From Minisyncoccota bacterium (GTDB lineage: Bacteria; Patescibacteriota; Minisyncoccia; Phycocordibacterales; UBA9973): a DNA stretch of 64,000 bases. The notes under the pieces were generated by a model, which saw only the letters and a list, made by a program, of their open reading frames with translations, did no database searches and was not told where the DNA came from. Below are positions 5,874 through 59,098 of this stretch, piece after piece (position 1 is the stretch's first letter; every line of letters starts with the position of its first letter). Made by a program: the position numbers and the translations under genes. The stretch lies in the NCBI GenBank assembly GCA_031291825.1, contig JARLIG010000004.1, positions 22,240-86,239 of the forward strand. Reading direction: 5' to 3'.

Positions 5874-5898
5874 TCGGGCGAACTCACTAAAAATAAAA

Positions 5899-9433: not shown

Positions 9434-9439
9434 TTAGAT

Positions 9440-13558: not shown

Positions 13559-13582
13559 CTATTGTATGCTAAAATTGGATTT

Positions 13583-15322: not shown

Positions 15323-15323
15323 C

Positions 15324-15788: not shown

Positions 15789-15799
15789 AGTGGAATAGA

Positions 15800-37106: not shown

Positions 37107-37556
37107 ATGTATTTAAACAAAGCAATCGTTATAGGAAATCTTACTCGCGACCCAGAGCTTCGCTCTCTTCCTTCTGGTATAAAAGTTTGTACTTTTTCTT
37201 TAGCTACGAATCGTGTTTGGAAAGATAAGAACGGCGCACGCCAAGAATCAGCTGATTATCACAATATCGTAGTCTTCGGACGCCAAGCGGAAACAGTTGC
37301 TCTGTATATGAAAAAAGGAAGTTCAATATTAGTCGAAGGTAGAATGCAGACGAGAAGTTGGGATGACAAGACAAGCGGAGAAAAGAAGTACCGTACCGAG
37401 ATAGTCGCTGACCGCACCCAGTTTGGTCCTAAAGGAGGTAGCGCGCCGAGTGGAGGAACAAACAGTGTTGGTAGCAAGGCTCCATCCGCCGAAGGTGAAG
37501 TTGACGCAATCGAGTATCCAGAAGAAGACATTAATCCAGAAGACATTCCATTTTAA
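37107..37556 (+). CDS. ssb: Single-stranded DNA-binding protein.
   Basis: There is an OB fold (IGNLTRDPELR...). A Gly-rich linker and an acidic C-terminal tail ending DIPF are present. Confidence 0.85.
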   Translation: MYLNKAIVIGNLTRDPELRSLPSGIKVCTFSLATNRVWKDKNGARQESADYHNIVVFGRQAETVALYMKKGSSILVEGRMQTRSWDDKTSGEKKYRTEIVADRTQFGPKGGSAPSGGTNSVGSKAPSAEGEVDAIEYPEEDINPEDIPF

Positions 37557-39595: not shown

Positions 39596-39883
39596 TTAAT
39601 GACCTCCCGATTTGGAATCTATTCCAGCCTCTTTTTTGTATATGATAGTATTAGCTGCCTCCAAAGCCTCTTTTTTTGAAATTTCACCATTTTGAAATTT
39701 TTTTATTAATTCCTCAACTTCTGAAGTTTCACTACTGTTGTTTCCCAATCTATAAATTTCTTGTTTTAAAAATTTAAGTTGTAAAATTGTTTCGTCAAAA
39801 TCTTTTTTGGTAAATATTCTTTGCTCTTCTTGAGCTTTCATTATGTGGTTACTGTCAAACATATATTTATACCTCTTCCGCAA
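39596..39883 (-). CDS. Hypothetical small protein.
   Basis: It is an intact ORF between recA and efp. Confidence 0.3.
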
Positions 39884-40916
39884 ATTTCTTTTTAATCTCT
39901 TTTAGAATTTGCTCGGAGACCTTCTTTTCTTCCTTTAAGAATTTGCGAGTAGAATCATAACCTACGCCGAGTTTTATCTTTTCCTTGCCTTCGCCCTCCG
40001 GTGTAAAGAAATATGAATTGCCACTTTTTTCCACGATTTTAAATTTTTCTCCCAAGGCAATCAATTCTCCCTCTCTCGAAATACCTTCGTTGAAAATGAT
40101 ATCAAATTCTGTCTGCTTAAATGGCGCAGCGATTTTGTTTTTTACGACTTTTACGCGAGTGCGGCCGCCAACGACTTCTTCGCCCTTTTTAATTTGCGCG
40201 ATTTTGCGAATGTCGAGTCGTACAGAAGTATAAAACTTTAAAGCCTTACCTCCTGGAGTGGTTTCTGGATTGCCAAACATCACGCCGATTTGCATACGGA
40301 TTTGGTTGATGAAAATTACAACCGTCTTAGAACGCGCGACGATGGCGGTCAATTTACGAAGCGCTTGGGACATCAGTCTGGCCTGCTTGCCGACATGATA
40401 AGCTCCCATATCTCCTTCGATTTCATCTTTTGGTGTGAGCGCGGCGACAGAGTCGATGACGATGACATCAATTTTTCCAGTTCGTACCAAACTTTCCACT
40501 ATCTCTAGAGCTTGTTCTCCGTTGTCTGGTTGAGATATGAGTAAGTCATTAATATTTACTCCAAGCTTTTTGGTGTAGTCTGGGTCCATCGCATGTTCAG
40601 CATCGATGTATGCGCAGACGCCGCCTTTCTTTTGAGCTTCCGCGACGATGTGCAGTGAGAGAGTAGTTTTACCAGAAGATTCTGGTCCAAAGATTTCAAT
40701 AATTCTGCCGCGAGGTATTCCGCCGATGCCTAGAGCCATATCTAGACCGATAGAGCCAGTCGGTATGACATTGATGTCCACTTTTGGTGAATCGCCAAAT
40801 TTCATGATTGCGCCTTCTCCGAATTTTGTCTGGATGGCTTTCAGTGTGTCGTTTAGTACTGATGCATCTCCACCCACTGTTTTATCTTCTTTCTTTTCTT
40901 TTTTCTTTAGTGCCAT
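39867..40916 (-). CDS. recA: Recombinase RecA.
   Basis: The Walker A motif [10 protein letters not shown] and typical RecA core blocks are present. Confidence 0.9.
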
Positions 40917-45314: not shown

Positions 45315-48300
45315 ATGAGTAATTTATTTAAATCAAAATTCTTTCTTGGAGTTATGATTGTATCAGTTTTACTCGTAGGAGGTTCTGTTGCTGTTAAGAC
45401 AGCCGCAGCCGCTACGGTAACACCTGCTACTGCAATCACACACACTTTGAAAGTAGGTTCCACATACAAGTCTGAAGTTGCATTACTTCAAACTGATTTG
45501 GGTCTTACTGCTGATGGTAGCTTCGGTCCTAAGACCAAGGCTGCTGTTGAAGCTTGGCAGACAAGCAAGGGTTTAACAGCCGATGGAGTATTTGGTCCTA
45601 AGTCAGCCGCTGCACTTGCAGGTGGTATGACTATGACTTACCCAGCAGGTTGTACTTCAGGTACAGGCTTCAGTTCTACAACTGGTCAACCATGTACTGG
45701 AACAGTCACTACGACTTACCCAGCAGGTTGTACTTCAGCTGTCGGATTCAGTCCTACTACTGGCGCATCATGTGCTACTGGTGTAGTTACTACTCCTCAA
45801 GGAACTGGCCCTCTATCAGTATCATTAGCTACAGACAACCCAGCAGCTGGAAACCTTATCCAAGGTCAAGCTACTGCTGACTTAGCTCACTACGAATTCA
45901 CTGGAACAGGTACACTTACACAGTTGACCTTACATCGAACAGGAATCTCAGATAACTCTGTCTTCCCAAACGTATACCTATACAATGGTAATACTCGTTT
46001 GACAGACTCAGCTTCTGTAAATTCAAGTGGTCAAATCATTTTCAATGGTCTTAACATCGCTGTAAATGGTTCACTTGATCTTTCTGTAAAGGCTGACATT
46101 GTTGGCGGTACTACAACAGAATCAACAGTTCAAGTTACTCTTACCAGTTATATGGTAAGTGGTGGCGCTGCTGCTACTTCTGTAAGTCTCGCTGGTAATT
46201 TGTTTTACGTAAACTCTGGTACAGGTATCCTTTCAACAGTTACTGTTGGAACAAACACTGTAGCTGTTCAAAGTATTTCAGCAGGAACTCAACAGCTTGC
46301 TCTCTGGTCAGCACCAATAAATGTTTCCCTTCACCCAGTATGGTTGAAGAGTGCATCTTTTGATGTTATCGGTTCAGCTCCATCAAATGCATTAGCAAAC
46401 GTTGGTTTGTTTGCAAATGGTGTTCAGGTTGCAACATCAACTGGTATTAACTCAATGGGTTACCTTACCTTTGATTTGTCAGCTGCTCCATTCTCAATGA
46501 CTACTGGCTCTACAACTCTTGAAGTTCGAGCTGACGTTGTAAATGGTTCATCTCGCAATATACAAGTTTCACTTCAACATGCATCTGACCTTATGGTTAC
46601 AGATTCACAAGTTGGCGTAAACATTGCTATTACGAATCTTAGTTCAACAACTTTCTCTATTAACCAAGGCGGTTTGATCACTATTCAGCAAGGTTCTCTT
46701 GTTGCTCAAAGTGATCCTACTTTCAACTCACAGACTAACGTTACTGGTGGCGCATCAAATGTCACTATCGCTAGTTACAAGTTGACTTCTTATGGAGAAG
46801 ACGTAAAAGTTAACACTGTATATGTAACTCCAACCATTTCTGGTAGTCCAGCAGCATGTAGTGCTCTCTCATCAGGTAATGTTGGATTGGAAAATGTTAC
46901 TCTCTACTACAACGGTTCTGCGATTGGCTCAAGTCAACCTGGAACAGTAAGTAGTGGTTGTACATTTAATCAATTGACATTTACTCCGGGTTCTAACCTA
47001 ACCATTTCAGGCGGCACAACTGGTACATTCCAGGTTCATGCTGACCTTATTAATGGTTCAGGTACCCCTCAGTATTCTTCAGGTACAATCGGTGCAACTA
47101 TTGTCGTTCAACAATATCAAGGAATCACTTCTGGACAAGTTAACACTTCTCCTTTGACATTGAGCGGTTCTAATACTCAAACTATTGCAACTGGTTCATT
47201 GTCAATTGCTCAGAATGCAAACTTCTTGAGTCAAACAGTCAATCCAAACAGCTCAGCTGTTCAGATTGGTTCTTTCACTCTTCAAAACCAGAGTACTTCT
47301 GAAGGTGTTGATGTTAATAGTTTGAACGTTGGCTTGTACACAAACAGTGGTTTGGGTACTGTCCTTACAAGTGGTAGCCCTGTTCCAATAACTGACATCT
47401 CAACCTTAACGTTGACTGGCATTACTGGAACTGTTACTCCTGTTGGTCAACCTACTGGATCAAACGTGTTCTCAACAAACTTCACGATTCCTGCAGGTGG
47501 CTCAGTTACTGTTGGCGTAGTTGCTAACGTTGGTTCCACAAACGGAGCTTCATTCGTTACAGCTTTGCAGCCAGTTGCTGTTGGTCATAGTTCACGTGTA
47601 ACTATTACTTCAGCAAATACTGCTGGTCAGACAATAACTCTTGGCGTAGGCGCATTGTCTACTCCAACTCTTGTTGCCAGTGGAGCAACAAATGCTCAAT
47701 TCATTTCAACAGCTGGTGCTGGTGCTCCTAATGCAGCTACAGAAACTTATAACTTCGTTTCTACTTCAGGTTCAGCAAACATTGTTGGTTTGAAGTTCGC
47801 TGCATTGTCTGGTAACTCAGGTACAGCTGGAGCACTTCCAGTTTCTGATTTCGCTGCTCCTACACTTCCTGAAACAGCATTAGTAGTAGGTTCAAACGCT
47901 GCTTCTTTTGCAGCTTGTCCTGTAGCTACCCCTTGTACATTCTTAGTTACTACTAACGGTGTTGTTGGTGGTACTAACGCTGTTGTCACTGGATACTACA
48001 ATGATGCAACTCACTTCAATGTGACTGCAATCACGACTCCAATGGTAGCAGGATGTACAACAACTGGTACATGTACTCCTGGAGTTCCTACAACTATTTA
48101 CCAGCTTGCAACTACTGGCGTAACTGGTGTTGCTCTAAACAGTCCTGGTGTTGCTACAGGTAGTGCTTCCTTCAGTGGAGGTATCGCTTATATCTCATCC
48201 ATCTCTGGTGCAACTCTTGGTACTGGTACAGCTAGTTACATTGCTGTTCCTAATAGTCCTTCCGGTATTACTATTCCTGCATTTATGTCATTCGGACCTG

Positions 48301-49022
48301 TTAACTCTGCTACAAGTGGAGGTGTCGCTTCCGGTACTAATGGACAAATTCTTCTTGAATACGTCCAATACCAGACTGGTAGTAACACATCTTACCTTGC
48401 TCCAGCAGTTCCAGGTACTGTCTTGACTCTTGTTGGTTCAAAGCCAAATATCTCTCTAACCTCTTCAGGTTCTGCTCTTACTAATAGTGCTACTGCATTC
48501 ATTGGTACATTGACAGTTACTGCAGACAATAGTGGTGATATCGCTTTGGATAAACTTCCATTATCTGTTTCTGTAAGCGTAGGTAATGGTGGTACTATCG
48601 GTACTGGCGTAGGTGTAGTTAAACTTACTGACACCAACGGTGTATCTCTTGGTTCCAACTTTACAGCTAACGCTGTATCCAGTGGTGAGTACGCAGAAGT
48701 ATTCGGTTCTGCACTTGCTAACCACTACAGAATTGCAGCTGGTCAATCAAAGACCTTTGAAATTCACGCAGACCTTAGTGGTATTACCACTTTTGGTTCA
48801 AGTGCAACTGTATCTGTTTCCCTTGGTGCTCCTGGTCACTTTGTCTGGGATGATATCAATGGTAACGATATCGCTAACGTATCAACAACTGGTACTGTAA
48901 CTGCAGTCGCTACTCCAACTCTATTCGGAGATGGTGTTAGTGCTCCAAGTTCAGCTTCAGATCTTGCTGCTGGTGGTATCTACAGTTACCCAAGTGGATC
49001 TTCAGCATCAATTCATAACTAA
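45315..49022 (+). CDS. Giant secreted surface protein (1235 aa). It has a signal peptide, two peptidoglycan-binding-like repeats, two Cys-pair mini-motifs and a long T/S/G/V-rich region.
   Basis: The signal peptide is MSNLFKSKFFLGVMIVSVLLVGGSVAV. There are two repeats of the form LxTDLGLTADGxFGPKTKAAVEAWQ. The motif YPAGCTS.(T/V)GFS.TTG..C occurs twice. Confidence 0.6.
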   Translation: MSNLFKSKFFLGVMIVSVLLVGGSVAVKTAAAATVTPATAITHTLKVGSTYKSEVALLQTDLGLTADGSFGPKTKAAVEAWQTSKGLTADGVFGPKSAAALAGGMTMTYPAGCTSGTGFSSTTGQPCTGTVTTTYPAGCTSAVGFSPTTGASCATGVVTTPQGTGPLSVSLATDNPAAGNLIQGQATADLAHYEFTGTGTLTQLTLHRTGISDNSVFPNVYLYNGNTRLTDSASVNSSGQIIFNGLNIAVNGSLDLSVKADIVGGTTTESTVQVTLTSYMVSGGAAATSVSLAGNLFYVNSGTGILSTVTVGTNTVAVQSISAGTQQLALWSAPINVSLHPVWLKSASFDVIGSAPSNALANVGLFANGVQVATSTGINSMGYLTFDLSAAPFSMTTGSTTLEVRADVVNGSSRNIQVSLQHASDLMVTDSQVGVNIAITNLSSTTFSINQGGLITIQQGSLVAQSDPTFNSQTNVTGGASNVTIASYKLTSYGEDVKVNTVYVTPTISGSPAACSALSSGNVGLENVTLYYNGSAIGSSQPGTVSSGCTFNQLTFTPGSNLTISGGTTGTFQVHADLINGSGTPQYSSGTIGATIVVQQYQGITSGQVNTSPLTLSGSNTQTIATGSLSIAQNANFLSQTVNPNSSAVQIGSFTLQNQSTSEGVDVNSLNVGLYTNSGLGTVLTSGSPVPITDISTLTLTGITGTVTPVGQPTGSNVFSTNFTIPAGGSVTVGVVANVGSTNGASFVTALQPVAVGHSSRVTITSANTAGQTITLGVGALSTPTLVASGATNAQFISTAGAGAPNAATETYNFVSTSGSANIVGLKFAALSGNSGTAGALPVSDFAAPTLPETALVVGSNAASFAACPVATPCTFLVTTNGVVGGTNAVVTGYYNDATHFNVTAITTPMVAGCTTTGTCTPGVPTTIYQLATTGVTGVALNSPGVATGSASFSGGIAYISSISGATLGTGTASYIAVPNSPSGITIPAFMSFGPVNSATSGGVASGTNGQILLEYVQYQTGSNTSYLAPAVPGTVLTLVGSKPNISLTSSGSALTNSATAFIGTLTVTADNSGDIALDKLPLSVSVSVGNGGTIGTGVGVVKLTDTNGVSLGSNFTANAVSSGEYAEVFGSALANHYRIAAGQSKTFEIHADLSGITTFGSSATVSVSLGAPGHFVWDDINGNDIANVSTTGTVTAVATPTLFGDGVSAPSSASDLAAGGIYSYPSGSSASIHN

Positions 49023-49067
49023 TAGAAGGTCGAATATTCTATTGGTCTAATCTCTTAAACGAGATTC

Positions 49068-49112
49068 AAAAAACCACTCCTCACGGAGTGGTTTTTTGTT
49101 GCCAATTTTTCC
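49068..49112 (+). terminator. Terminator-like hairpin AAAAACCACTCCTCACGGAGTGGTTTTTTGTTGCCAATTTTTC; this is copy 1 of an identical direct repeat.
   Basis: An identical ~45-nt sequence recurs at 49691-49735. It has a stem-loop plus a T-run. Confidence 0.7.
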
Positions 49113-49229
49113 AATTCACCTCACCCCAACCCCTCTCCAAAAAACTTTCTCCTTTTTGGAGAGGGGAAAAAGGGGAGAGGCAATTTTTGTTTGCATTTTT
49201 TCTTTGCCGTATGTTATAATATTTTGGAA

Positions 49230-49457
49230 ATGATTTATACACAGCATGCTAGAGAAAGGATGAGCTTGAGGGGTATTACGGAAGAAATGGTAAAGAAAGC
49301 CCTACTTGAGCCAGATGTGACTGGTGTGGGTTATCAAGGTAAGAACTTAGTGTTTAAGAAATTTAGTAAAGGGACAATTAAGGTTGTCTTTATAAAGAAA
49401 AAAAGTTCTGAGATTATTATTTCTGTTATTTGGGAATTAATAAATAATAAGAATTAA
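49230..49457 (+). CDS. DUF4258-family small protein (toxin-like partner of DUF2283).
   Basis: The N-terminus is MIYTQHARERMSLRGITEEMV. A TATAAT box lies at 49215-49220. The ORF track start at 49191 is probably too far upstream. Confidence 0.6.
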   Translation: MIYTQHARERMSLRGITEEMVKKALLEPDVTGVGYQGKNLVFKKFSKGTIKVVFIKKKSSEIIISVIWELINNKN

Positions 49458-49462
49458 AAAAT

Positions 49463-49678
49463 ATGAAAATTACTTACGACAAAACAGTGGATGTGCTATA
49501 TCTTTATTTCCAAGATGGTGTTTTTGCGCGCAATAAAGAAGTCGAAGAAGGTATCATTTTAGATATAGGCAAAGGAAATAAAGTTCTTGGTATTGAGATA
49601 CTAAATGCAAGTAAGAAAATAAAACCAAAAAATATGAATTACTTAAATTTTCAAATTCCTGTTGGAATGCCAATATAA
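49463..49678 (+). CDS. DUF2283-family small protein (antitoxin-like partner).
   Basis: The sequence is MKITYDKTVDVLYLYFQDG...GIEILNASKK. It is 71 aa and lies 5 nt downstream of its partner. Confidence 0.6.
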   Translation: MKITYDKTVDVLYLYFQDGVFARNKEVEEGIILDIGKGNKVLGIEILNASKKIKPKNMNYLNFQIPVGMPI

Positions 49679-49690
49679 TTTAATTTCTCT

Positions 49691-49735
49691 AAAAAAACCA
49701 CTCCTCACGGAGTGGTTTTTTGTTGCCAATTTTTC
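49691..49735 (+). terminator. Copy 2 of the identical terminator-like direct repeat.
   Basis: It matches 49068-49112 exactly. Confidence 0.7.
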
Positions 49736-49741
49736 TATTTT

Positions 49742-49816
49742 TGACGTTGGACATCCGCCAAAGGCGGATGTCCAACGTCGGCTCCAGACGTGGAGCGTCT
49801 TGGAGGTTTATCCACA
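49742..49816. repeat. Composite REP-like element with a TTTATCCACA tail: GACGTTGGACATCCGCCAAAGGCGGATGTCCAACGTC + GGCTCCAGACGTGGAGCGTCTTGGAGG + TTTATCCACAG.
   Basis: The same architecture recurs at 51511-51598. Confidence 0.8.
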
Positions 49817-49896
49817 GTGCATATTGTAATATGAAGACATCTGGTTCGGCATATGTGATAATGAAAGAGCTTTATTATTAATATCTTTATAATTTT

Positions 49897-50388
49897 ATGG
49901 AAAACAAAAAGAAAATGGCGGTGTATATTGTCTTGGGAGTTCTTTTAGTTGTTGTCGCTGGTTTTATTTTTTGGTCTATCGTAGTTTCTACGAGACCGCA
50001 ACCTGCTTCGACTGGCACACCTGTAGCTCTTACTCCTGCTGTAACGCCTACTCCTACAGAAGATACAACGACTGGTAGTGTACACACTGGTTCTGCTGTT
50101 ACTCTTGCTTACGCAGATGCACTAATTACATATGCAAATGCTCGTCTTCAACTCGACACGAATTGTCAGGCGTTAGCTAGTCCTTCCAACTTAGTTTTCA
50201 GAAATAACTCATTACTAATGGTTGATAATCGTGCTCCCGTCACTCGTACTGTTCACATCGGTTCGGTGTTCACGATTAAACCTTATGGTTTTAAAATTGT
50301 AAAACTTTCCAGCTCGACTCTTCCGGCCACTTGGCTCGTAGATTGTGACGCATCTCAAAACGTCGCCACGATTACTATTGAAAAATAA
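49897..50388 (+). CDS. Hypothetical membrane-anchored protein with a P/T-rich linker.
   Basis: An N-terminal TM helix is present. No catalytic motifs were recognised. Confidence 0.4.
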   Translation: MENKKKMAVYIVLGVLLVVVAGFIFWSIVVSTRPQPASTGTPVALTPAVTPTPTEDTTTGSVHTGSAVTLAYADALITYANARLQLDTNCQALASPSNLVFRNNSLLMVDNRAPVTRTVHIGSVFTIKPYGFKIVKLSSSTLPATWLVDCDASQNVATITIEK

Positions 50389-50432
50389 AATAGTCTAGAA
50401 AACGGTCAAAAAACATACGTCAGACACTTCAA

Positions 50433-50479
50433 AAACCGACGTTGTACACCCGCAAGGCGGATGTCCAACGTCGGTTTTT
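50433..50479. repeat. REP-like hairpin in a terminator configuration: AAAAACCGACGTTGTACACCCGCAAGGCGGATGTCCAACGTCGGTTTTTGTTTTT.
   Basis: A long GC-rich stem is flanked by A- and T-runs. Confidence 0.8.
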
Positions 50480-50529
50480 GTTTTTCGGAACGTCTTTATG
50501 TTTTAACCTAGTTTTGCTAAACTATATCC

Positions 50530-50715
50530 ATGTTTGACCTTTTGCTAAAAGTTGCTTTTCTGATATTTATCTTGCCTATTTACATCGCGCAGGAAGCTTA
50601 TGCAAAGTTCAAGAAACACATGAGCAAAGGGAACCGCTGGCATTATTTTCCCTATGTGCTTTTAGCTATTCTCCTAATTCTCCTTATAATCTTGCTTATT
50701 ATAGGCTACAAATAA
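50530..50715 (+). CDS. Hypothetical small two-TM membrane protein (61 aa).
   Basis: It is a short hydrophobic ORF and may not be real. Confidence 0.25.
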   Translation: MFDLLLKVAFLIFILPIYIAQEAYAKFKKHMSKGNRWHYFPYVLLAILLILLIILLIIGYK

Positions 50716-50789
50716 CTCCAGACATTCCCAGACGTTGGACGTCTGTATCCTTACAGACGTCCAACGTCTGGAGGTTTATCCACATCCGC
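50716..50789. repeat. Composite REP-like element immediately upstream of the RAYT gene: CTCCAGACATTCCCAGACGTTGGACGTCTG-TATCCTTA-CAGACGTCCAACGTCTGGAGGTTTATCCACA.
   Basis: It is a double hairpin with a TTATCCACA tail. Confidence 0.8.
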
Positions 50790-50836
50790 TTCATGAAGTA
50801 TGTATGAGATAATAAAACTGTAATTTTTATTATTTT

Positions 50837-51502
50837 ATGAGAAAACATCCACTCGTAACTAATCAATATTATCATATATACAACAGGGGAGTTGATAAAC
50901 GAGATATCTTTTCAGACAAGAAAGATCTCAATCGTTTTATTTTGAGTATCAAGCAATTCAATAAAATTTATCCAGTTGGCAGTATCCGAGACAACGTGCG
51001 AGATAAAATAGTTTCTAAATATTTAAAACGACGAGGCAAAGATGCTGATGCCTTGGTTTCTATTGTTTGTTTTTGTTTAAATCCAAATCATTTTCATTTT
51101 ATTTTAAAGCAAGAAGCTGATGGTGGTATTTCTGAATTTCTAAAACGTCTTTTGGGTGGATATACAAAATATTTTAATTTAACCCACAAACGTAGTGGCG
51201 CCCTGTTTCAGGGTAGGTTTAAATCACGCTTGATAGACAGTGAACAATATTTTTTGAAAATTTTTCCATACGTGAATATCAACCACATGATTCATGACAT
51301 ACCGGAAGAAAAAAGATTTTTGGTTTCTTCTAGTGACGTTGAATACGAAAAAATGGTCTTTGATATTGTCTCTAAAAAAGAAGCTGAAAATCTCCTCGCT
51401 TTTTATGGCAATAAAAACAATTTTAAAAATGAATGCCTAAAAGTATCTTCAATAATTAGAGAACAAAGAGAAGAGGTGTCTTCATTTCTAGAAGAAGAGT
51501 AG
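50837..51502 (+). CDS. IS200/IS605-like HuH tyrosine transposase, probably a REP-associated tyrosine transposase (RAYT / TnpA_REP).
   Basis: Motifs present are YYHIYNRGVDKRDIF, the HuH motif NPNHFHFILK, the Tyr region GGYTKYFNLTHKRSGALFQGRFKSRLI and YFLKIFPYVNINHM. The gene is flanked on both sides by REP-like elements. Confidence 0.7.
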   Translation: MRKHPLVTNQYYHIYNRGVDKRDIFSDKKDLNRFILSIKQFNKIYPVGSIRDNVRDKIVSKYLKRRGKDADALVSIVCFCLNPNHFHFILKQEADGGISEFLKRLLGGYTKYFNLTHKRSGALFQGRFKSRLIDSEQYFLKIFPYVNINHMIHDIPEEKRFLVSSSDVEYEKMVFDIVSKKEAENLLAFYGNKNNFKNECLKVSSIIREQREEVSSFLEEE

Positions 51503-51510
51503 ATTTCGTG

Positions 51511-51598
51511 TTCCAGACGTTGGACTGACGTTGTACACCCGCAAGGCGGATGTCCAACGTCGGCTCCAGACGTCCAACGTCTGGAGGGTTATCCACTT
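51511..51598. repeat. Composite REP-like element immediately downstream of the RAYT gene, ending in GGTTATCCACT.
   Basis: The sequence is TTCCAGACGTTGGACTGACGTTGTACACCCGCAAGGCGGATGTCCAACGTCGGCTCCAGACGTCCAACGTCTGGAGGGTTATCCAC. Confidence 0.8.
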
Positions 51599-51630
51599 TT
51601 ACAAATTTTTCTTAGGCATACAATTAAATC

Positions 51631-52275
51631 ATGGAAAATATAAAAACCACATGGGTCCGCAAAATTTTTAAAATTTTAAAGTGGACTTTTTTAGTTTTAA
51701 TCTGTTTATTTATTGTTGCTTGTGTTTGGCGCGGTATTTATCTTTCTAATAAAAAGAAAGAACAAGCAAAAACAGACGCCGAAGTGGAAAAAATTCATAA
51801 CACCAAACTTACATTGGCTGATGTGATGGGTACGAATCTTCCGCCTGACCCTGGAGCATTGGCTGACCAGACTATTGCCGGTGTAGATGCCAACAATAAT
51901 GGCATTCGTGACGATGTCGAGTTAGCTATTTTTAATGCTTATCCAAAATCTGCAAAAACTAGAGCCGTGCTTTTACAACTTGCCCTAGCAATGGAAATGG
52001 AAAATAAACAATCGTTCATTAATAGTGAAATAGTTGATGCTGTTCTTGATAAAGAAGACAGTGCTATTTTTTGTTCAGCAGATCTTATTCCCGGAGATGG
52101 TGCAACTGAATCAAGAATATTCTTAACTACAAATAGATATTTACGTACGCTAGCAAAGGAGCAATATAATACTGATAGTAGAATCCAAGCAGAAAAAAAA
52201 TTTATATCTTATTCGAAAAGTAAAACAGAATTAACACCATTTTGTGATATAGATTTATCTACTTTATCAAACTAA
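51631..52275 (+). CDS. Hypothetical membrane-anchored protein (214 aa).
   Basis: An N-terminal TM helix is present. No motifs were recognised. Confidence 0.35.
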   Translation: MENIKTTWVRKIFKILKWTFLVLICLFIVACVWRGIYLSNKKKEQAKTDAEVEKIHNTKLTLADVMGTNLPPDPGALADQTIAGVDANNNGIRDDVELAIFNAYPKSAKTRAVLLQLALAMEMENKQSFINSEIVDAVLDKEDSAIFCSADLIPGDGATESRIFLTTNRYLRTLAKEQYNTDSRIQAEKKFISYSKSKTELTPFCDIDLSTLSN

Positions 52276-52284
52276 AGTAAAAAT

Positions 52285-55200
52285 ATGAAGAACAATTTTA
52301 TAAAAGAATACGGCAAAGTTGTTGTATGTTTTATGTTTCTTGTTGTTTTTCTGATACCCAAGTTCTCTTTTGCTTCTGGTCAGTGCTCTAAGAGTGGATA
52401 TACGGTTTTAGTTATTAATGGAGTAAATACCACTCAACAGGAGGCTGAAAACAATGCAACTAATCTAGAATCTAAATTTAAACCAACATATAATGGAGAA
52501 AACCTTAATATTAAATATCTTTATAACCCTACTCATACTGCAATAGCCGATCTTCTTGATGCAGGAGTGCAAAAAACCGATGACCAGTCTATGTCTGACC
52601 TTCAAGATTCAGATTTTGCGCAGATGTTAAATGATGCTAGTAATAAAGTTAAAACACAGAAACTTTTACTAGTTGGTCATTCTCAGGGAAATTTTTATGC
52701 CAATACTTTTTACGATACAGTTGTTGATGCTACTGGCGGTATTCCGAGTCAGTCTATTGGTGTTTATGCGGTGGCTACGCCAGCTAACCGTGTTTCCGGA
52801 ATAAATAGTGCAAATTATATAACTTCTGACACAGACCAAGTGATAGACCATATTCCTGGCATTTTAAAACCAAATGTCCACATAGATTTTAAAGCCAGTG
52901 ACGGTGATTTAATGGGCCATGATTTTTCTAAAATATATTTAAAATATGAAGGTGCAAAAATTGTTTCCGATATAGATACCTCACTTAATAAACTAAAAAC
53001 CAACGATATTCAAAATGAAAACGTTGCTTGTATTAATCCACCGAAATTAACTTTGCCACAAAAAATACAAGGAACGATTTTGTCTACGCTTGACCATGTG
53101 ACGCTTCCATTTCAAGATGCTCTTGTTTATGTTGCTACTGGTGTAACTAATGTTACTGTCGCTATCGCTAATACGACGGTAAATCTTACCGGCTCAGCTA
53201 TTTCTGCTGTTTCTTCTTTGTTTAACCAAACTGTCAGCAATACCAATACTTTGGCGACAAGTGGCGGAGGGGATGTAATAAATTCGATAGAACCCACAAC
53301 ACTAAGTAATTCTACAAGTACTCAACTGACAGAAAATTTACAACCAACTCCACAATTTACATCACCACAAAATGTTTCAATTATAAATTCTTCACCGACG
53401 ACCGAAACCACTTCTTCAAATTCAGCAGCATCATTTGTCGGTAGGGGTGGCGGTGGAGAAGTTGCTATGGCAGAGGAAAATGACGAAGGAGCAATAATTC
53501 CACCAACCATTCCACCGATAGATAATAATCCACCATCTACTGATGTTACTCCTCCCGTCATCACTGTTTTGGGAGACAATCCTGCAGTGGTTGTGCAATA
53601 TGATACTTACACCGATGCTGGGGCTACTGCCACTGACGACGTTGATGGTGCTATTAATGTTGTTGCCAGCGGAACAGTTGATACGACAACGGTTGGCATT
53701 TACACTATTACTTACACGGCGACAGATTCCTCAGGAAATATTGCAACGGCGACTCGTAGTGTAACAGTAGTTGCTTCACAGTCCACTACGAATCCTCCTC
53801 CGTCACCACTCAGTACTTTTACGATTGATAAAGATACAACTCTGACTGCTGGTGAGTACAATTATGAAAATTTATTAATAACCAATAACGCAATATTAAC
53901 CTTACAAGGAGACCCTACTTCCTCGAGTGCTTTCAAGGGAGTAAAAATTAACGCAGATAATATTACTATCGATCCTGGTTCTTCTATTTCTGCAGATGGA
54001 GAGGGTTATGCAGGAGGTGATGGACCAGGAAATTCTTCAGTGTACTATGTCGGGGCAAGTTATGGAGGACTTAGTTATAATGGAGCTACGTATTCGCAAA
54101 CTTATGGTTCAGCTATAAAGCCTACAGACTTAGGCAGCGGAGGACATAGTTCTGGCGGTGGGGCGATTGAGCTAAATGTCTCAAATACTTTTACCGATGA
54201 TGGTACTGTCTCTGCTGATGGTAATATTTCTAGCAGTGGTGGAAGTATTTATGTGACAGCTCAAAATATTACTGGTAGTGGAATATTGCAAGCTGATGGT
54301 GGAAATCTTTTTGGGAGCGGTTATTTCCAAAGTCCAGGAGGGGGTGGAAGAATTGCCGTTTATTATCAAACATCCACTTTTAGCGGAACAGCAGAAGCAA
54401 AAGGTGGATGTGGTAGTTACGATAGTTCGACTAATTCTTGCGCGGGCGACGGAACGGTTGGTTTTTTTAACACGAGTACTAATGATTTATATCTAAACAA
54501 CTCTTGGGAATTTCTACAAGCAGATGCACCCTTTTTATTTAATAATATTTATATTTCAAATGGTGCCAAGGTAACATCGGAAAATGATGTAACGATAACA
54601 ACCAAAAATAATTTTATCGTTGATAAAAATTCTTCTTTTGCTTTAGCTGATAATCAAATATTAAATTCTCCGACACTTATAATTAGCAGTAATTCAACTT
54701 TAACTCTTTCGGGAACTGAAAAAATTACTTCCAACGACCTTATTCTTACTGGAAATTCCACTTTAACTATCGTTCCTCAAAAAATACTTTCTTTAACGAT
54801 TCCAAATATTCATATTGATTCTGGTTCTTCTATTTCTGCAGACGGAAAAGGTTATGGTCAAAGTGAAGGTCCAGGAGAACCAGCGGTAAGTGGTGCTGGC
54901 GCAAGTTATGGTGGTGTCGGTTATCAAAATTCTTTAACCTCAACATATGGATCTCAAACAAATCCAGTCGATTTAGGAAGCGGTGCGGCGTTGAGTGGTG
55001 GCGGAGCCATACAACTTATTGTTTCAAATACTTTTGAAAATGATGGAATAGTTTCTGCTTCTGGTAGCGCTTCTGGTAGTGGAGGAAGTATAAATATAAA
55101 TACAAACAGCTTGTCTGGTACTGGTGCATTTAGTGCGGACGGTGGAGGACTTTACGGCAATGGTTATTTTCAGGGCCCAGGTGGAGGGGGACGGGTTGCT

Positions 55201-55998
55201 ATTTCTTACAACGCCACTTCTTTTAGCGGAACAGTAGAAGCTAAAGGAGGATGTGGCAGTTATGATGGTTGGAGTAGTTCTTGCGCAGGTGGTGGGACGG
55301 TTTATATTCTAAATGAATCAGTTCCAGTCCAGAGTTCTTTAAAAACAATTACAGCATTTGATTTTTCAAATTTAACGCCGATTGTTTCTGGTGTTGTTGA
55401 TGAAACGAACCATGCTATTTCTTTGACTGTCCCTTATGGAACGGATATAACGACTCTCGTGCCTATGATTACTATTTCAGATAAAGCATCAATTAGTCCA
55501 ACCACAAACACGTCTCAAGATTTTACGAATCCAGTTACTTATAAAATTACTGCAGAAGATGGATCAACACAAAATTATGTTGTGAATGTGACCGTAGCGC
55601 CCAACCCAGATCCTCCAGTGACACCGCCTCAAACACCAAGCACGACACTACCTTCAATCACAAGTTATACATTTAATGGTACGGCTGGAAACATAATAAT
55701 AAATCCGACAGCAATAACCCCTTTTTCTTTAATGATGACTGCTAGTGAAAATGTAAATTGGATGTCTATAAAAATTGAAAATCAAAACGATTCAAGCACT
55801 TATAAAATTTTTCAGTCTGGGGCAGGCTGTGTGGATGGCACAAATACTTGCACAAAAAGTTGGGACGGTGCTTTGTCAAAAGGGGGGTTGTTGCAAAATG
55901 GAACTTTTCGAATAAAGGTTCATGTCAAAGACAGCGCGGGCAATGAATACGACGATTATCTTACCCCATATATAATTACAGTTGACACTTCGTTGTAA
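52285..55998 (+). CDS. Giant secreted protein (1237 aa). It has an N-terminal alpha/beta-hydrolase (lipase-like GHSQG) domain, an Ig-like domain, two tandem ~190-aa Gly-rich beta-helix-like repeats and C-terminal Ig-like domains.
   Basis: A signal peptide is present. The nucleophile elbow is LLVGHSQGNFY. The two repeats are GSGGHSSGGGAIELNVSNTF...KGGCGSYDSSTNSCAGDGTV and GSGAALSGGGAIQLIVSNTF...KGGCGSYDGWSSSCAGGGTV. Confidence 0.6.
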   Translation: MKNNFIKEYGKVVVCFMFLVVFLIPKFSFASGQCSKSGYTVLVINGVNTTQQEAENNATNLESKFKPTYNGENLNIKYLYNPTHTAIADLLDAGVQKTDDQSMSDLQDSDFAQMLNDASNKVKTQKLLLVGHSQGNFYANTFYDTVVDATGGIPSQSIGVYAVATPANRVSGINSANYITSDTDQVIDHIPGILKPNVHIDFKASDGDLMGHDFSKIYLKYEGAKIVSDIDTSLNKLKTNDIQNENVACINPPKLTLPQKIQGTILSTLDHVTLPFQDALVYVATGVTNVTVAIANTTVNLTGSAISAVSSLFNQTVSNTNTLATSGGGDVINSIEPTTLSNSTSTQLTENLQPTPQFTSPQNVSIINSSPTTETTSSNSAASFVGRGGGGEVAMAEENDEGAIIPPTIPPIDNNPPSTDVTPPVITVLGDNPAVVVQYDTYTDAGATATDDVDGAINVVASGTVDTTTVGIYTITYTATDSSGNIATATRSVTVVASQSTTNPPPSPLSTFTIDKDTTLTAGEYNYENLLITNNAILTLQGDPTSSSAFKGVKINADNITIDPGSSISADGEGYAGGDGPGNSSVYYVGASYGGLSYNGATYSQTYGSAIKPTDLGSGGHSSGGGAIELNVSNTFTDDGTVSADGNISSSGGSIYVTAQNITGSGILQADGGNLFGSGYFQSPGGGGRIAVYYQTSTFSGTAEAKGGCGSYDSSTNSCAGDGTVGFFNTSTNDLYLNNSWEFLQADAPFLFNNIYISNGAKVTSENDVTITTKNNFIVDKNSSFALADNQILNSPTLIISSNSTLTLSGTEKITSNDLILTGNSTLTIVPQKILSLTIPNIHIDSGSSISADGKGYGQSEGPGEPAVSGAGASYGGVGYQNSLTSTYGSQTNPVDLGSGAALSGGGAIQLIVSNTFENDGIVSASGSASGSGGSININTNSLSGTGAFSADGGGLYGNGYFQGPGGGGRVAISYNATSFSGTVEAKGGCGSYDGWSSSCAGGGTVYILNESVPVQSSLKTITAFDFSNLTPIVSGVVDETNHAISLTVPYGTDITTLVPMITISDKASISPTTNTSQDFTNPVTYKITAEDGSTQNYVVNVTVAPNPDPPVTPPQTPSTTLPSITSYTFNGTAGNIIINPTAITPFSLMMTASENVNWMSIKIENQNDSSTYKIFQSGAGCVDGTNTCTKSWDGALSKGGLLQNGTFRIKVHVKDSAGNEYDDYLTPYIITVDTSL

Positions 55999-57340: not shown

Positions 57341-59098
57341 ATGGACAATAAATCATCTAGACAAAAAGTAGCGCTTATCTCTGTATATGACAAGACGGGC
57401 ATTAAAGAATTTGCAAAAAATCTAGTAGATTTGGGCTGGAAAATAGTCTCTTCTGGTGGCACAGCTAAACATTTAACAGAAGCGGGTATGCCCGTGACTG
57501 ACGTAGCGGAAATTACCGGCATGCCACCAATTCTTTCACACCGAGTTTTGACGCTACATCCGAAAATCCATGGCGGGCTTTTGGCGCTTGATACATCGGA
57601 GCATTTAGCAGAGCTGGAAAAATATGGGATTCCTTGGATTGATTTAGTTTGTTGTGATTTATATCCACTGGAGGAGGAAATAAAAAACTCTAGCGCGACG
57701 CGAGAATCAGTTATTGAAAAAACAGATATTGGTGGACCGACAATGCTTCGTTCGGGGGCAAAAGGGAGGCGCATAACTATTTGTGACCCGAGCGATAGAG
57801 AAAAAGTAATTGAGTGGTTAAAAAAAGGCGAGCCTGAACGTGAAGAATTTTTAAATAATTTAGCAGCTAAGGCGGAAGCAGTAATTGCAAAATACTGTTC
57901 TGCTTCTGCCGAGTATCACAGTAAAGGAGAGCTCAAAGGAATTTTTGGAAAGAAAGAAATAGAATGCGCATATGGGGAAAATGCATATCAAAAACCAGCC
58001 AGCTTATATAGAAATTTAAATGTGCATAACACTCCAGACGGTGGACGTCTGGAAGCTACCAGACGTCCAACGTCTGGAGACCCATTAGCCATACATAATT
58101 GGCAACTCGTGGCAGGCAGTCCGCTTTCCTATAATAATATTTGCGATGTGGATAGAATGATGCAAACGATGACACATATTGGCGCTGGTTTTGAGAAAAA
58201 TTTTGGAAAAGTTCCAGACATCGCGATTGGCGCAAAGCATGGCAATGCTTGTGGGGCAGCGTTTGCTGAAGAAGAAATTAATGCGATTGATAATATGCTC
58301 TTGGGAGACTTGCGCGCAATTTTCGGCGGTTCGGTGATGCTAAATTTTAATGTAGATGAAAAAATTGCGGAAGAATTAATCCATAAATATGCAGGTGCTG
58401 GGAGACGATTGCTGGACATTGTCGCGGCACCATCTTTTTCTGCCGAGGCTATAGAGATTTTATCTCGCAAAAAAGGTAAATGCAGAATTTTAGTAAATCC
58501 AAACATTTTGAAAGCAGGATTATCTTCTTTGGATACAACTTCTAGGTTTCGTTACGTGCGTGGGGGATTTTTGACTCAACCGAATTATACTTTTGTTCCA
58601 AGATTGCAAGAGCCAGAGATGTCGGTATTCCGCCAAGGCGGAAGCCCGACACCTGTGGCGATTATACAAGATGTCATTCTCGCTTGGGCTGTCGGATGCA
58701 CATCAAATAGCAATACAATTACAATTGTGAAAGATGGCAGACTTTATGGCAATGGCGTAGGACAACAAGACCGTGTAGGGGCCGCCAAGCTTGCAATTTT
58801 TCGCGCAGACGATGCCACCGCTTTTGCTGTGGATAACCCTCCAGACGTTGGACGTCTGGAAGCTTCCAGACGTCCAACGTCTGGGACAGGGGCTGATTTA
58901 GAAGGGGCTGTAGCTTGCAGTGATAGCTTCTTTCCTTTCCCAGATGCGCCGGAAGTACTAATAAATCGGGGGATAAAGACCATCTTTTCCACTAGTGGCT
59001 CAGTAAATGACGATAAAATTATAGAACTTTGCAAGACAAAAAACGTAAATCTAATAATGCTTCCAGACTCTGAAGCCAGGGGATTCTACCAGCATTAA
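57341..59098 (+). CDS. purH: Bifunctional AICAR transformylase / IMP cyclohydrolase (PurH) carrying two in-frame REP-like insertions.
   Basis: The N-terminal MGS-like motifs are ALISVYDKTGI...SSGGTAKHL...RVLTLHPKIHGG. The C-terminal AICARFT motifs are SPLSYNNICD, ACSDSFFPFPD and FYQH. The inserted peptides are PDGGRLEATRRPTSGD and PDVGRLEASRRPTSGT. Confidence 0.75.
   Translation: MDNKSSRQKVALISVYDKTGIKEFAKNLVDLGWKIVSSGGTAKHLTEAGMPVTDVAEITGMPPILSHRVLTLHPKIHGGLLALDTSEHLAELEKYGIPWIDLVCCDLYPLEEEIKNSSATRESVIEKTDIGGPTMLRSGAKGRRITICDPSDREKVIEWLKKGEPEREEFLNNLAAKAEAVIAKYCSASAEYHSKGELKGIFGKKEIECAYGENAYQKPASLYRNLNVHNTPDGGRLEATRRPTSGDPLAIHNWQLVAGSPLSYNNICDVDRMMQTMTHIGAGFEKNFGKVPDIAIGAKHGNACGAAFAEEEINAIDNMLLGDLRAIFGGSVMLNFNVDEKIAEELIHKYAGAGRRLLDIVAAPSFSAEAIEILSRKKGKCRILVNPNILKAGLSSLDTTSRFRYVRGGFLTQPNYTFVPRLQEPEMSVFRQGGSPTPVAIIQDVILAWAVGCTSNSNTITIVKDGRLYGNGVGQQDRVGAAKLAIFRADDATAFAVDNPPDVGRLEASRRPTSGTGADLEGAVACSDSFFPFPDAPEVLINRGIKTIFSTSGSVNDDKIIELCKTKNVNLIMLPDSEARGFYQH
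58024..58081. repeat. REP-like element inside purH: TGTGCATAAC-ACTCCAGACGGTGGACGTCTGG-AAGCTA-CCAGACGTCCAACGTCTGGAG.
   Basis: It is a double hairpin plus a TGTGCATAAC tail, and it is in-frame in the CDS. Confidence 0.8.
58828..58887. repeat. REP-like element inside purH: GTGGATAACC-CTCCAGACGTTGGACGTCTGG-AAGCTT-CCAGACGTCCAACGTCTGGG.
   Basis: It is a double hairpin plus a GTGGATAACC tail, and it is in-frame in the CDS. Confidence 0.8.

What the first reader, a model, noticed from the sequence alone, without database searches (positions are those of the whole stretch)
49068..49735. DUF4258/DUF2283 toxin-antitoxin-like pair bracketed by identical 45-bp direct repeats
Two small ORFs lie 5 nt apart (49230-49457 and 49463-49678). 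The first carries MIYTQHARERMxxRGI, characteristic of DUF4258. The second carries MKITYDKTVDVLYLYF...GIEILNAS, characteristic of DUF2283. These two families are recurrently paired as putative TA modules. The pair is flanked by exact copies of AAAAACCACTCCTCACGGAGTGGTTTTTTGTTGCCAATTTTTC at 49068 and 49691. A CCCCTCTCC/GGAGAGGGG inverted-repeat cluster (49128-49180) lies upstream and a composite REP follows. The repeats suggest a cassette insertion or duplication event.
Basis: partly seen in the sequence, partly recalled or inferred. Interest (0 to 1): 0.5.

Follow-up and report, generated by a model that had tools for sequence, protein, structure and literature searches.

The report
Toxin-antitoxin cassette flanked by duplicated terminator
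A small two-gene toxin-antitoxin module was recently inserted just after the transcription terminator of a surface-protein gene in an ultra-small (Patescibacteria) bacterium, duplicating that terminator; this is a clear but fairly ordinary case of a mobile addiction or defence module landing in a variable spot of the genome.

Summary

Each repeat copy is an intrinsic-terminator hairpin plus 14 nt. The left copy is the native terminator of the upstream surface-protein gene. It sits at the same position in a Ca. Nomurabacteria relative, with a compensatory stem change.

The cassette plus the right copy is 100% identical in a second lineage, and that identity ends 2 nt after the repeat. The adjacent gene there is only 74% identical and saturated at third codon positions. 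Other relatives carry different small genes at this locus, or none, and some of those are also bracketed by duplicated intergenic modules.

The window has no integrase. It does encode RecA, ComEC and pilus genes.

Best reading: a recently acquired type II toxin-antitoxin cassette in a fast-turnover islet, probably inserted by homologous recombination at the terminator. It is a new member of known kinds and of modest interest.

The parts
45315..49022 (+). Upstream gene: a 1235-aa surface protein with an N-terminal PG_binding_1 domain. Its 3' UTR leads into the left repeat copy.
   Evidence: ORF list. Pfam PG_binding_1 E 6e-9. The stop codon plus 3' UTR aligns with the orthologous gene end in L002.
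49068..49111 (+). Left repeat copy (T_L). It is an intrinsic, bidirectional-looking terminator hairpin (A6-CCACTCC-TCAC-GGAGTGG-T6, 49068-49097) plus a 14-nt tail GTTGCCAATTTTTC. This is the native terminator of the surface-protein gene.
   Evidence: Exact repeat. Hairpin -20.8 kcal/mol, z -5.5. Terminator scan hit. Positional orthology and a compensatory stem change against L002.
49112..49180 (+). Left end of the inserted segment. It holds a remnant of a C/T-rich repeat element (CAATTCACCTCACCCCAACCCCTCTCC), a 14-bp GC-rich hairpin (49130-49143 and 49153-49166), and a third GGGGAGAGG.
   Evidence: motif unique in the window. Fold -32.9 kcal/mol. The 19-mer at 49117-49135 is shared with L010, where it flanks the pair on both sides.
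49191..49220 (+). Putative promoter of the pair: TTGCAT, 18 nt, then an extended -10 TGTTATAAT. The -10 ends 9 nt before the ATG, so the leader is very short or absent.
   Evidence: Read from the sequence. A comparable -35/-10 pair sits at the same distance in all five contexts. It was not listed by the strict consensus scan.
49230..49457 (+). Toxin gene: 75 aa, DUF4258, BECR (RelE/ParE/BrnT-like) fold.
49463..49678 (+). Antitoxin candidate: 71 aa, DUF2283/YuzE-like. It has a five-strand beta domain and a disordered C-terminal tail.
   Evidence: Pfam. AF2 pLDDT 82 with residues 56-71 disordered. It always lies immediately downstream of the DUF4258 gene.
49692..49735 (+). Right repeat copy (T_R). 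It is an identical terminator module that now terminates the toxin-antitoxin operon. The 100% identity tract shared with the L001 lineage ends at 49737.
49743..49816 (+). Composite REP element: an 18-bp hairpin, a partial second hairpin, and GGTTTATCCACA. This is the native right flank of the insertion site.
   Evidence: Fold -48.8 kcal/mol, z -8.9. It differs from the L001 lineage's REP from 49738 onward.
49897..50388 (+). Downstream conserved gene (DG): a 163-aa membrane-anchored protein. It was used as the anchor to find the locus in relatives.
50837..51502 (+). RAYT-like Y1 (IS200-like) transposase gene, a conserved neighbour of the locus. It is context only and not shown to act on the cassette.
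   Evidence: Pfam Y1_Tnp at 26.4 bits (cutoff 23). NCBIfam REP_Tyr_transpos E 4e-7, below cutoff. Orthologues in L002 and L010.

Best explanation
The segment 49112-49691, together with one copy of the 44-nt terminator module, is a self-contained type II toxin-antitoxin cassette. It has its own promoter, a BECR-fold (RelE/ParE/BrnT-like) RNase toxin of family DUF4258, a cognate DUF2283 antitoxin 5 nt downstream, and a terminator.

The cassette was recently acquired by this Paceibacteria genome. It landed in a fast-turnover islet between a surface-protein gene and a conserved 163-aa gene.

It went in exactly at the surface-protein gene's intrinsic terminator. The most likely route is RecA-type recombination between the terminator module carried by the incoming DNA and the resident terminator. 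The incoming DNA could have been a circularised cassette (Campbell-type single crossover) or a transformed fragment. Either way the product is terminator-cassette-terminator.

Both terminator copies remain functional. The left one ends surface-protein transcription. The right one ends the toxin-antitoxin operon and shields the downstream gene.

Shown: the repeat, the family memberships, the toxin fold, the recurrent pairing, that the left copy is the native terminator, the recent horizontal origin, and the variability of the locus.

Inferred: toxicity and neutralisation, RNase activity, the recombination route, and the physiological role (addiction or stabilisation, or abortive-infection-type defence).
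For: Repeat and hairpin.

Family membership.

Toxin fold:
- Foldseek gives HigB2 probability 1.0 and BrnT TM 0.70.

Conserved operon: the 75-aa plus 71-aa pair with its own promoter occurs in five contexts. These are this locus, alaS/ftsA-like, beside a PIN toxin-antitoxin pair, and beside HepT/MNT.

The left copy is the native terminator: the surface-protein stop, 3' UTR and hairpin align at 83% with L002, with a compensatory U-A to C-G stem change.

Recent acquisition:
- Window 49308-49737 is 100% identical to L001, L003 and L024. The identity stops 2 nt after the repeat.
- The adjacent gene there is 74% identical at the nucleotide level, with 52% identity at third codon positions.
- Against L010, the toxin is 92% and the antitoxin 95% identical at the nucleotide level, but DG is 72% and RAYT 79%.
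- Cassette GC is 27-29%, against 40-45% in the flanks.

Variable locus:
- L006 and L008 have no cassette.
- L002 and L004 carry other small genes.
- L002 and L004 differ in content although their DG genes are 98% identical.

Recurrent duplication of junction modules:
- In L002 a terminator+REP module is repeated at 78% around a 96-aa gene.
- In L010 exact 73-nt repeats flank gene 1, and a terminator plus C/T-rich element lies on both sides of the toxin-antitoxin pair.

Recombination route:
- No integrase or site-specific recombinase was found among the ORFs of at least 100 aa in the 64-kb window.
- ComEC, type IV pilus-type genes, RecJ, RecO, RecA and SSB are present.
- Competence and homologous recombination in Patescibacteria are supported in the literature (PMC12455944).
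Against: - Nothing about toxicity or neutralisation was tested. DUF4258 has no experimentally characterised member according to the table in PMC11980606. That table lists the usual gene order as antitoxin-toxin, whereas here the toxin comes first.
- The antitoxin model has no significant structural match, and no DNA-binding domain was recognised.
- 44 nt is close to the lower limit for efficient RecA-dependent recombination.
- The sharp coincidence of the identity breakpoint with the repeat end is also what a site-specific mechanism would give.
- No empty site with a single identical 44-mer, no circular form, and no left flank of the cassette in the L001 lineage could be obtained.
- In other contexts the pair has no flanking repeats, so the repeats are not a property of the cassette itself.
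- In L003 an IS3-family element abuts a truncated antitoxin gene. This shows the module can be lost.
Confidence: 0.55

Rival explanations
1. Site-specific, hairpin-directed cassette exchange. The terminator hairpin module acts like an attC-type site, or a RAYT or other HUH-enzyme substrate, and a dedicated enzyme encoded elsewhere inserts and excises promoter-gene-terminator cassettes. The conserved Y1 RAYT-like protein 1.1 kb downstream is one candidate. The result would be an integrase-less cassette array.
For: - The identity tract shared with the L001 lineage ends within 2 nt of the repeat end.
- Cassettes at this locus in three lineages each end in a homologous hairpin module.
- Arrays of two cassettes occur in L002 and L010.
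- The RAYT-like gene is a conserved neighbour in the window, L002 and L010.
- 44 nt is short for RecA-dependent recombination.
Against: - No tyrosine or serine recombinase is present in the 64-kb window.
- The hairpin is a perfect palindrome. It lacks the extrahelical bases and the RYYYAAC/GTTRRRY cores of attC sites (read).
- The REP sequences that a RAYT would recognise lie only on the right side of the cassette.
- The duplicated module differs between lineages: terminator only, terminator+REP, or terminator plus C/T-rich element. This fits homology-driven events better than a fixed site.
- The 44-mer core was found nowhere else in JGI metagenomes or viral contigs, apart from the same cassette.
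Confidence: 0.12
2. Old resident cassette with local homogenisation. On this view the T-cassette-T arrangement is ancestral to these lineages. The exact identity of the two copies, and of the cassette between lineages, reflects later gene conversion or allelic replacement of the whole islet. It would not be a fresh insertion at the terminator.
For: - L010 has the same overall order, terminator - C/T-rich element - hairpin - promoter - pair - terminator. Its two terminators have diverged and carry indels, which suggests the arrangement predates the window's event.
- The pair sits at the same locus in three lineages.
Against: - Allelic replacement still requires recent horizontal import of the cassette (100% against 74%). 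This rival therefore differs only in where the crossovers lay.
- L002, L004, L006 and L008 lack the pair at the locus.
- Nothing to the left of the hairpin is duplicated.
Confidence: 0.18
3. Assembly artefact. The metagenome assembler may have threaded a cassette from a co-occurring strain into this contig through the shared 44-nt terminator.
For: - The source is a MAG.
- The identical cassette exists in another lineage found in bog or peat-type metagenomes.
- Contigs of that lineage break inside or next to the cassette.
Against: - 44 nt is shorter than the final k-mers of the usual assemblers, so k-mers spanning cassette-T-REP(window type) must exist in the reads.
- The right flank after T_R is the window's own REP variant, not the L001 type.
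- An independent contig of a third lineage (L010) spans the T-cassette-T-DG arrangement. The L001, L003 and L024 contigs independently span only the right half, cassette-T-REP-DG.
Confidence: 0.05
4. Not a toxin-antitoxin pair. The two genes may be a small regulator (DUF2283, as in the transcriptional activator FseA) and an inactive BECR-fold protein with some other role.
For: - DUF2283 domains act as transcription activators or anti-activators in ICEMlSym-R7A (PMC4755241).
- No DUF4258 member has been tested.
- PADLOC finds no match.
- The module is disrupted in L003.
Against: - There is strict two-gene synteny with 1-5 nt spacing across diverged contexts.
- H, R and R residues are invariant in the toxin family.
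- The fold matches are almost exclusively toxins.
- The pair neighbours other toxin-antitoxin modules (PIN, HepT/MNT) in L019 and L021.
Confidence: 0.1

Closest known systems
Toxin-first type II toxin-antitoxin systems of the RelE/ParE (BECR) superfamily, such as BrnT-BrnA and HigB-HigA
   Same: - Two small adjacent genes with the toxin upstream.
- The pair has its own promoter and a short leader.
   Different: - Sequence identity to solved toxins is only 2-20%.
- The antitoxin is a DUF2283 beta-domain protein rather than an RHH, HTH or Phd-type DNA binder, and it has no significant structural match.
- Activity and target are untested.
Pfam DUF4258 (PF14076), overlapping Ntox49 in the colicin-like BECR branch
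   Different: The published table gives antitoxin-toxin as the family's gene order and names MqsA or HicB partners in some genomes. Here the partner is DUF2283 and the toxin comes first. No paper in the searched library mentions both DUF names together.
Integron gene cassettes, including toxin-antitoxin cassettes of chromosomal integrons
   Same: - Small units of about 0.6 kb, each ending in a palindromic element.
- Arrayed head to tail at one locus, with content differing between relatives.
- A toxin-antitoxin pair as cargo that carries its own promoter.
   Different: - There is no IntI or any tyrosine recombinase in the window.
- There is no attI.
- The palindrome is a perfect intrinsic terminator without attC core sites or extrahelical bases.
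- The duplicated junction module varies between lineages.
Minimal mobile elements of Neisseria (Saunders and Snyder 2002, cited in PMC1538595)
   Same: A fixed chromosomal position holds different small gene sets in different strains. There are no mobility genes, and exchange is presumably by natural transformation plus homologous recombination. The window encodes ComEC, pilus genes and RecA.
   Different: Here the flanking genes are too diverged (about 72-74% nucleotide identity) to serve as recombination arms. The usable homology is the short intergenic modules: the terminator, REP and the C/T-rich element. The insertion also leaves a direct duplication, which classical allelic replacement does not.
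REP/RAYT (REPIN) systems
   Same: A REP family with 20 half-sites in the window and a Y1 RAYT-like gene 1.1 kb away. A composite REP lies immediately right of T_R.
   Different: The cassette is not REP-flanked on both sides, and the duplicated sequence is not a REP. No evidence links the RAYT to the insertion.

Membership tests
Pfam DUF4258 (PF14076) | Score above the gathering cutoff over most of the model | tested here: met
   35.6 bits against 25, model positions 1-71 of 71.
Pfam DUF2283 (PF10049) | Score above the gathering cutoff over most of the model | tested here: met
   59.6 bits against 23, model positions 1-49 of 49. Homologues are annotated DUF2283/YuzE.
RelE/ParE (BECR-fold) toxin superfamily | Compact alpha/beta fold: two N-terminal helices packed on a four-strand antiparallel sheet | tested here: met
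Type II toxin-antitoxin system | Two small co-oriented genes in one operon, with the pairing conserved across unrelated genomic contexts | tested here: met
   5-nt gap in the window. The same order and sizes occur in L010, L011-L018, L019/L020 and L021/L022.
Type II toxin-antitoxin system | The toxin arrests growth and the antitoxin protein neutralises it by direct binding | not testable with these tools
   Needs expression and rescue assays. No complex prediction was available.
Type II toxin-antitoxin system | The antitoxin has a DNA-binding domain that autoregulates the operon | tested here: inconclusive
   No HTH, RHH or AbrB domain by Pfam. The fold search was uninformative. DUF2283 proteins can be transcription regulators (PMC4755241).
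Integron gene cassette | An IntI tyrosine recombinase and attI adjacent to the array | tested here: not met
   Pfam scans of the large ORFs (at least 100 aa, non-overlapping) across the 64-kb window found no integrase.
Integron gene cassette | An attC site: an imperfect palindrome with RYYYAAC ... GTTRRRY cores and extrahelical bases | tested here: not met
   The repeat is a perfect 13-14 bp stem with A/T runs. The tail GTTGCCA does not fit GTTRRRY.
Transposon or IS insertion with target-site duplication | Terminal inverted repeats, a transposase, and a short (2-15 bp) duplication | tested here: not met
   No inverted repeats at 49112 and 49691. No transposase lies inside the segment. The duplication is 44 bp.
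REP/RAYT-mobilised unit (REPIN-like) | REP hairpins on both ends of the mobilised segment | tested here: not met
   REP half-sites lie only to the right of T_R, at 49743-49779. There are none at 49000-49691.
Rho-independent terminator (for the repeat itself) | A GC-containing stem-loop followed by a U-tract, placed just after a stop codon, with the structure conserved in orthologues | tested here: met
   The hairpin starts 46 nt after the surface-protein stop and 14 nt after the antitoxin stop. A compensatory change is seen against L002. Termination itself was not assayed.
Known RNA families (Rfam 15) | A match at the gathering score | tested here: not met
   All 19 matches in 48800-51700 fall far below their gathering scores.

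The most novel reading that the evidence does not exclude
The terminator hairpin module may be more than a passive homology patch. It could be the dedicated recombination site of an integrase-independent cassette system in Paceibacteria. In that system, promoter-gene-terminator units would be excised as small circles and re-inserted at terminators next to a conserved RAYT gene, building arrays such as those seen in L002 and L010. This would be a hairpin-directed, possibly HUH/Y1-mediated, analogue of integrons.
Probability: 0.1. Interest if true: 0.7.

Novelty: new member of a known kind. Interest (0 to 1): 0.35.

Why it matters
The finding gives a clean natural example of a toxin-antitoxin module moving between clearly diverged, co-occurring Patescibacteria lineages into the same chromosomal spot. 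Streamlined genomes of this group are often said to lack such systems.

The DUF4258-DUF2283 pair is a good candidate for first experimental characterisation. It is a small BECR-fold toxin with an unusual beta-domain antitoxin.

The terminator duplication, together with the neighbouring cassette arrays, suggests that short intergenic modules (terminators, REPs) act as portable recombination arms in these naturally competent bacteria. If a dedicated mechanism were involved, that would be considerably more interesting.

Tried and rejected
- Exact-protein look-ups of the toxin (75-aa and 88-aa versions) and of the 163-aa downstream protein found nothing on record. The left flank of the cassette in the L001 lineage therefore stayed unknown. 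A look-up of that lineage's downstream protein gave only short contigs.
- A scan of JGI metagenomes for the hairpin plus tail found only the same cassette (L003). Viral contigs gave none for either the DNA or the protein. Plasmids gave none. No empty site with an identical single copy was found.
- I tested whether the duplication extends left of the hairpin into the surface-protein 3' UTR. Local alignments were no better than shuffles, so this was rejected.
- I tested whether the GC-rich hairpin upstream of the promoter is a conserved operator of the pair. It is absent from the pair's other contexts. It belongs to a local C/T-rich repeat element that is shared with L010.
- Rfam gave only sub-threshold hairpin noise.
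- PADLOC and NCBIfam gave no hits for either protein.
- Sequence search of the PDB gave no relatives for either protein.
- The antitoxin fold search had no significant match. The best hit was a chain of an EF-Tu/CdiA/CdiI complex at E 1.2.
- I checked whether L003 is a simple IS insertion into the antitoxin gene. The sequence left of the IS is unrelated to the cassette, so it is a rearrangement or deletion and gives no left junction.
- The integron, transposon target-site duplication and REPIN readings were each rejected on defining features (see the membership tests).
Full report
**1. Observation**

The repeat is real. AAAAAACCACTCCTCACGGAGTGGTTTTTTGTTGCCAATTTTTC occurs exactly twice in the 64-kb window, at 49068-49111 and 49692-49735. 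Shuffled sequence gives no matches. It is 44 nt rather than 45, and the second copy starts at 49692. With five more bases the similarity reaches 49 nt at 96%.

Each copy is an A6-CCACTCC-TCAC-GGAGTGG-T6 hairpin followed by GTTGCCAATTTTTC. Folding energy is -18.5 to -20.8 kcal/mol, z about -5.5. The left copy was picked up by the terminator scan.

Both pass Pfam's curated cutoffs: DUF4258 at 35.6 bits against 25, and DUF2283 at 59.6 bits against 23.

The CCCCTCTCC/GGAGAGGGG hairpin (49130-49166) and the composite REP (49743-49816) are also real.

**2. Source and context**

The 163-aa downstream protein is identical to an NCBI MAG protein of 'Candidatus Pacebacteria bacterium' on an 87.5-kb contig.

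The window is ordinary chromosome. It carries aminoacyl-tRNA synthetases, ribosomal proteins, RecA, FtsK and EF-P. It also carries ComEC, type IV pilus-type genes, RecJ, RecO and SSB.

None of the scanned large ORFs is an integrase or other site-specific recombinase. The only transposase-like gene is a RAYT-like Y1 protein at 50837-51502. It goes with a REP family that has 20 half-sites in the window.

**3. The two genes**

Homologues of the toxin (26 aligned, 61-91% identical) keep H6, R10 and R14 invariant, among other residues.

An AlphaFold model built on that alignment is confident (pLDDT 90.9).
- Foldseek agrees in ranking, although its E-values are weak.

The literature lists DUF4258 as a BECR toxin family with unknown target and no experimental reference (PMC11980606). 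A 2026 preprint moves it to the colicin-like branch.

The antitoxin candidate is a five-strand beta domain with a disordered C-terminal tail. It has no significant structural match. DUF2283 domains are known from the regulators FseA and QseM (PMC4755241).

The 75-aa plus 71-aa pair, toxin first and with 1-5 nt spacing, recurs in at least five contexts in Patescibacteria:
- this locus (window, L001, L010);
- between alaS and an ftsA-like gene (L011-L018);
- beside a PIN toxin-antitoxin pair (L019, L020);
- beside HepT/MNT (L021, L022).

Each has a promoter ending 8-12 nt before the ATG.

I conclude it is very probably a type II toxin-antitoxin module of the RelE/ParE superfamily. Toxicity, target and neutralisation are inferred, not shown.

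**4. What the repeat is**

The surface-protein gene's stop codon, 3' UTR and hairpin align at 83% with the orthologous gene end in a Ca. Nomurabacteria MAG (L002). The stem there carries a compensatory change, CCACTCC/GGAGTGG against CCACCCC/GGGGTGG.

The left copy is therefore that gene's own intrinsic terminator. The right copy is a duplicate that now follows the antitoxin stop by 13 nt. Nothing to the left of the hairpin is duplicated.

**5. Evidence for recent insertion**

A second lineage was recovered from several metagenome assemblies (L001, L003/L023, L024). It carries DNA 100% identical to window 49308-49737, which covers most of the toxin gene, the antitoxin gene and the right repeat. 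The identity stops 2 nt past the repeat.

From there on the REP and the downstream gene are only about 74% identical. Third-codon-position identity is 52%, which is saturation.

A third lineage (L010) has the pair at the same locus. The toxin is 92% and the antitoxin 95% identical at the nucleotide level, while the flanking DG gene is 72% and the RAYT gene 79% identical.

The cassette is also AT-richer than its flanks, 27-29% against 40-45% GC.

The cassette is therefore much younger than the genomes that hold it, and it has moved horizontally into the same locus.

**6. The locus is a variable islet**

Content at the locus differs between relatives.

| Locus | Content upstream of the 163-aa gene orthologue |
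|---|---|
| L006, L008 | The preceding gene abuts the orthologue directly; no cassette |
| L002 | Two unrelated small coiled-coil genes |
| L004 | A 55-aa gene plus one of the L002 genes |
| L010 | One of the L002 genes followed by the toxin-antitoxin pair |

The DG genes of L002 and L004 are 98% identical, yet the content of the islet differs between them.

Duplicated junction modules recur:
- In L002 a terminator+REP module of about 120 nt is repeated at 78% around the first gene.
- In L010 the first gene is bracketed by exact 73-nt copies of a C/T-rich element.
- In L010 the pair has a terminator plus the C/T-rich element on both sides. The 19-mer CACCTCACCCCAACCCCTC, which also lies at window 49117-49135, is part of that element.

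In the pair's other genomic contexts there are no flanking repeats. The repeats are therefore a property of this islet, not of the module.

**7. Mechanism**

The anatomy is what a single crossover between a resident terminator and a terminator carried on incoming DNA would give. The resident arrangement would be surface-protein gene, T, REP. The incoming DNA would carry T, the C/T-rich remnant, the hairpin, the promoter and the pair. The product is T_L, cassette, T_R, REP.

The extent of the duplication in each lineage matches the sequence that donor and target would have shared. That is T only in the window, T plus the C/T-rich element in L010, and T plus REP in L002. This favours homology-driven recombination over a fixed site.

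The genome encodes the uptake and recombination machinery. Competence is well supported for this phylum (PMC12455944).

Three things count against this reading. 44 nt is short for RecA. The breakpoint sits exactly at the repeat end. Neither an empty site nor a circular form could be observed. I give the overall reading 0.55.

The rivals and their confidences are:
- a dedicated hairpin-directed mechanism, possibly involving the conserved RAYT neighbour: 0.12;
- an older resident arrangement with later conversion: 0.18;
- an assembly artefact: 0.05;
- 'not a toxin-antitoxin pair': 0.10.

**8. Comparison with known systems**

As a gene pair it is a member of Pfam DUF4258 and DUF2283. It works most like toxin-first RelE/ParE-superfamily systems such as BrnTA and HigBA.

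As a genomic feature it resembles Neisseria minimal mobile elements (PMC1538595) and, superficially, integron cassettes. It fails the defining integron features: there is no IntI, no attC cores, and the palindrome is perfect. It also fails those of transposon target duplications and of REPIN mobilisation.

Rfam, PADLOC, plasmid, phage and viral searches added nothing.

**9. Verdict**

One copy is the upstream gene's terminator, and the event is an insertion with terminator duplication.

It is a new member of known kinds. Interest is modest, at 0.35. The main reasons for interest are the clean evidence of recent cassette exchange between diverged Patescibacteria, and the small chance (about 0.1) that the terminator-bounded arrays reflect a dedicated mechanism.

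Noticed in passing
window 57341-59098 (REP doublets at 58021-58089 and 58828-58884): The purH-like ORF (Pfam MGS + AICARFT_IMPCHas, 585 aa) contains two REP doublets in frame. They are translated as ..HNTPDGGRLEATRRPTSG.. and ..DNPPDVGRLEASRRPTSG.. and the ORF stays open. This resembles Rickettsia palindromic elements inserted into coding genes.
   Followed up: partly
window 49808-49816, 50775-50783, 51588-51596, 58828-58837 and others: The outer ends of the full REP doublet (GTGGATAAC ... GTTATCCAC) match the DnaA-box consensus TTATCCACA. Copies sit just upstream of several promoters in the window, L002, L004 and L010.
   Followed up: no
window 24204-27755: A class I aminoacyl-tRNA synthetase (IleRS-like, 1183 aa) appears to carry a histidine-phosphatase (His_Phos_1) domain inserted at residues 523-685, inside the catalytic domain.
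   Followed up: no
L010 1-73 and 592-664; L002 6782-6900 and 7269-7384: Other small genes at the same islet are also bracketed by duplicated intergenic modules. In L010, exact 73-nt copies of a C/T-rich element flank a 119-aa coiled-coil gene. In L002, a terminator+REP module is repeated at 78% around its 96-aa homologue.
   Followed up: partly
L003 (= L023) 185-1343: An IS3-family element (HTH_Tnp_1 plus rve ORFs) abuts the antitoxin gene, truncated at the equivalent of window 49513. The DNA to the left of the IS is unrelated to the cassette. In that population variant the toxin and the 5' part of the antitoxin are missing at this junction, and the most likely reading is an IS-associated rearrangement or deletion.
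   Followed up: partly
L002 7992-8489 versus L004 5001-5492: The 163-aa gene orthologues are 98% identical, but the upstream neighbours differ completely. L002 has the surface-protein gene plus two small genes. L004 has a beta-lactamase-like gene, a 55-aa Cys-rich ORF and one small gene. This shows very fast turnover at the islet.
   Followed up: partly
window 4116-7119, 8807-11239, 13439-17275, 27791-28372, 37107-37556, 39867-40916: A dense set of DNA-uptake and recombination genes lies in one 64-kb window. It includes T2SS/T4P ATPase and platform proteins, pseudopilins, RecJ, ComEC, RecO, SSB and RecA.
   Followed up: no
L002 3182-6700: The orthologue of the large surface protein is split into several ORFs in this MAG. 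This points to frameshifts from long-read sequencing errors or to a pseudogene.
   Followed up: no
window 53959-55313: The 1237-aa surface protein (52285-55998; Bact_surface_Ig-like and DUF5018 domains) contains an internal tandem duplication of about 845 nt at 71-81% identity.
   Followed up: no
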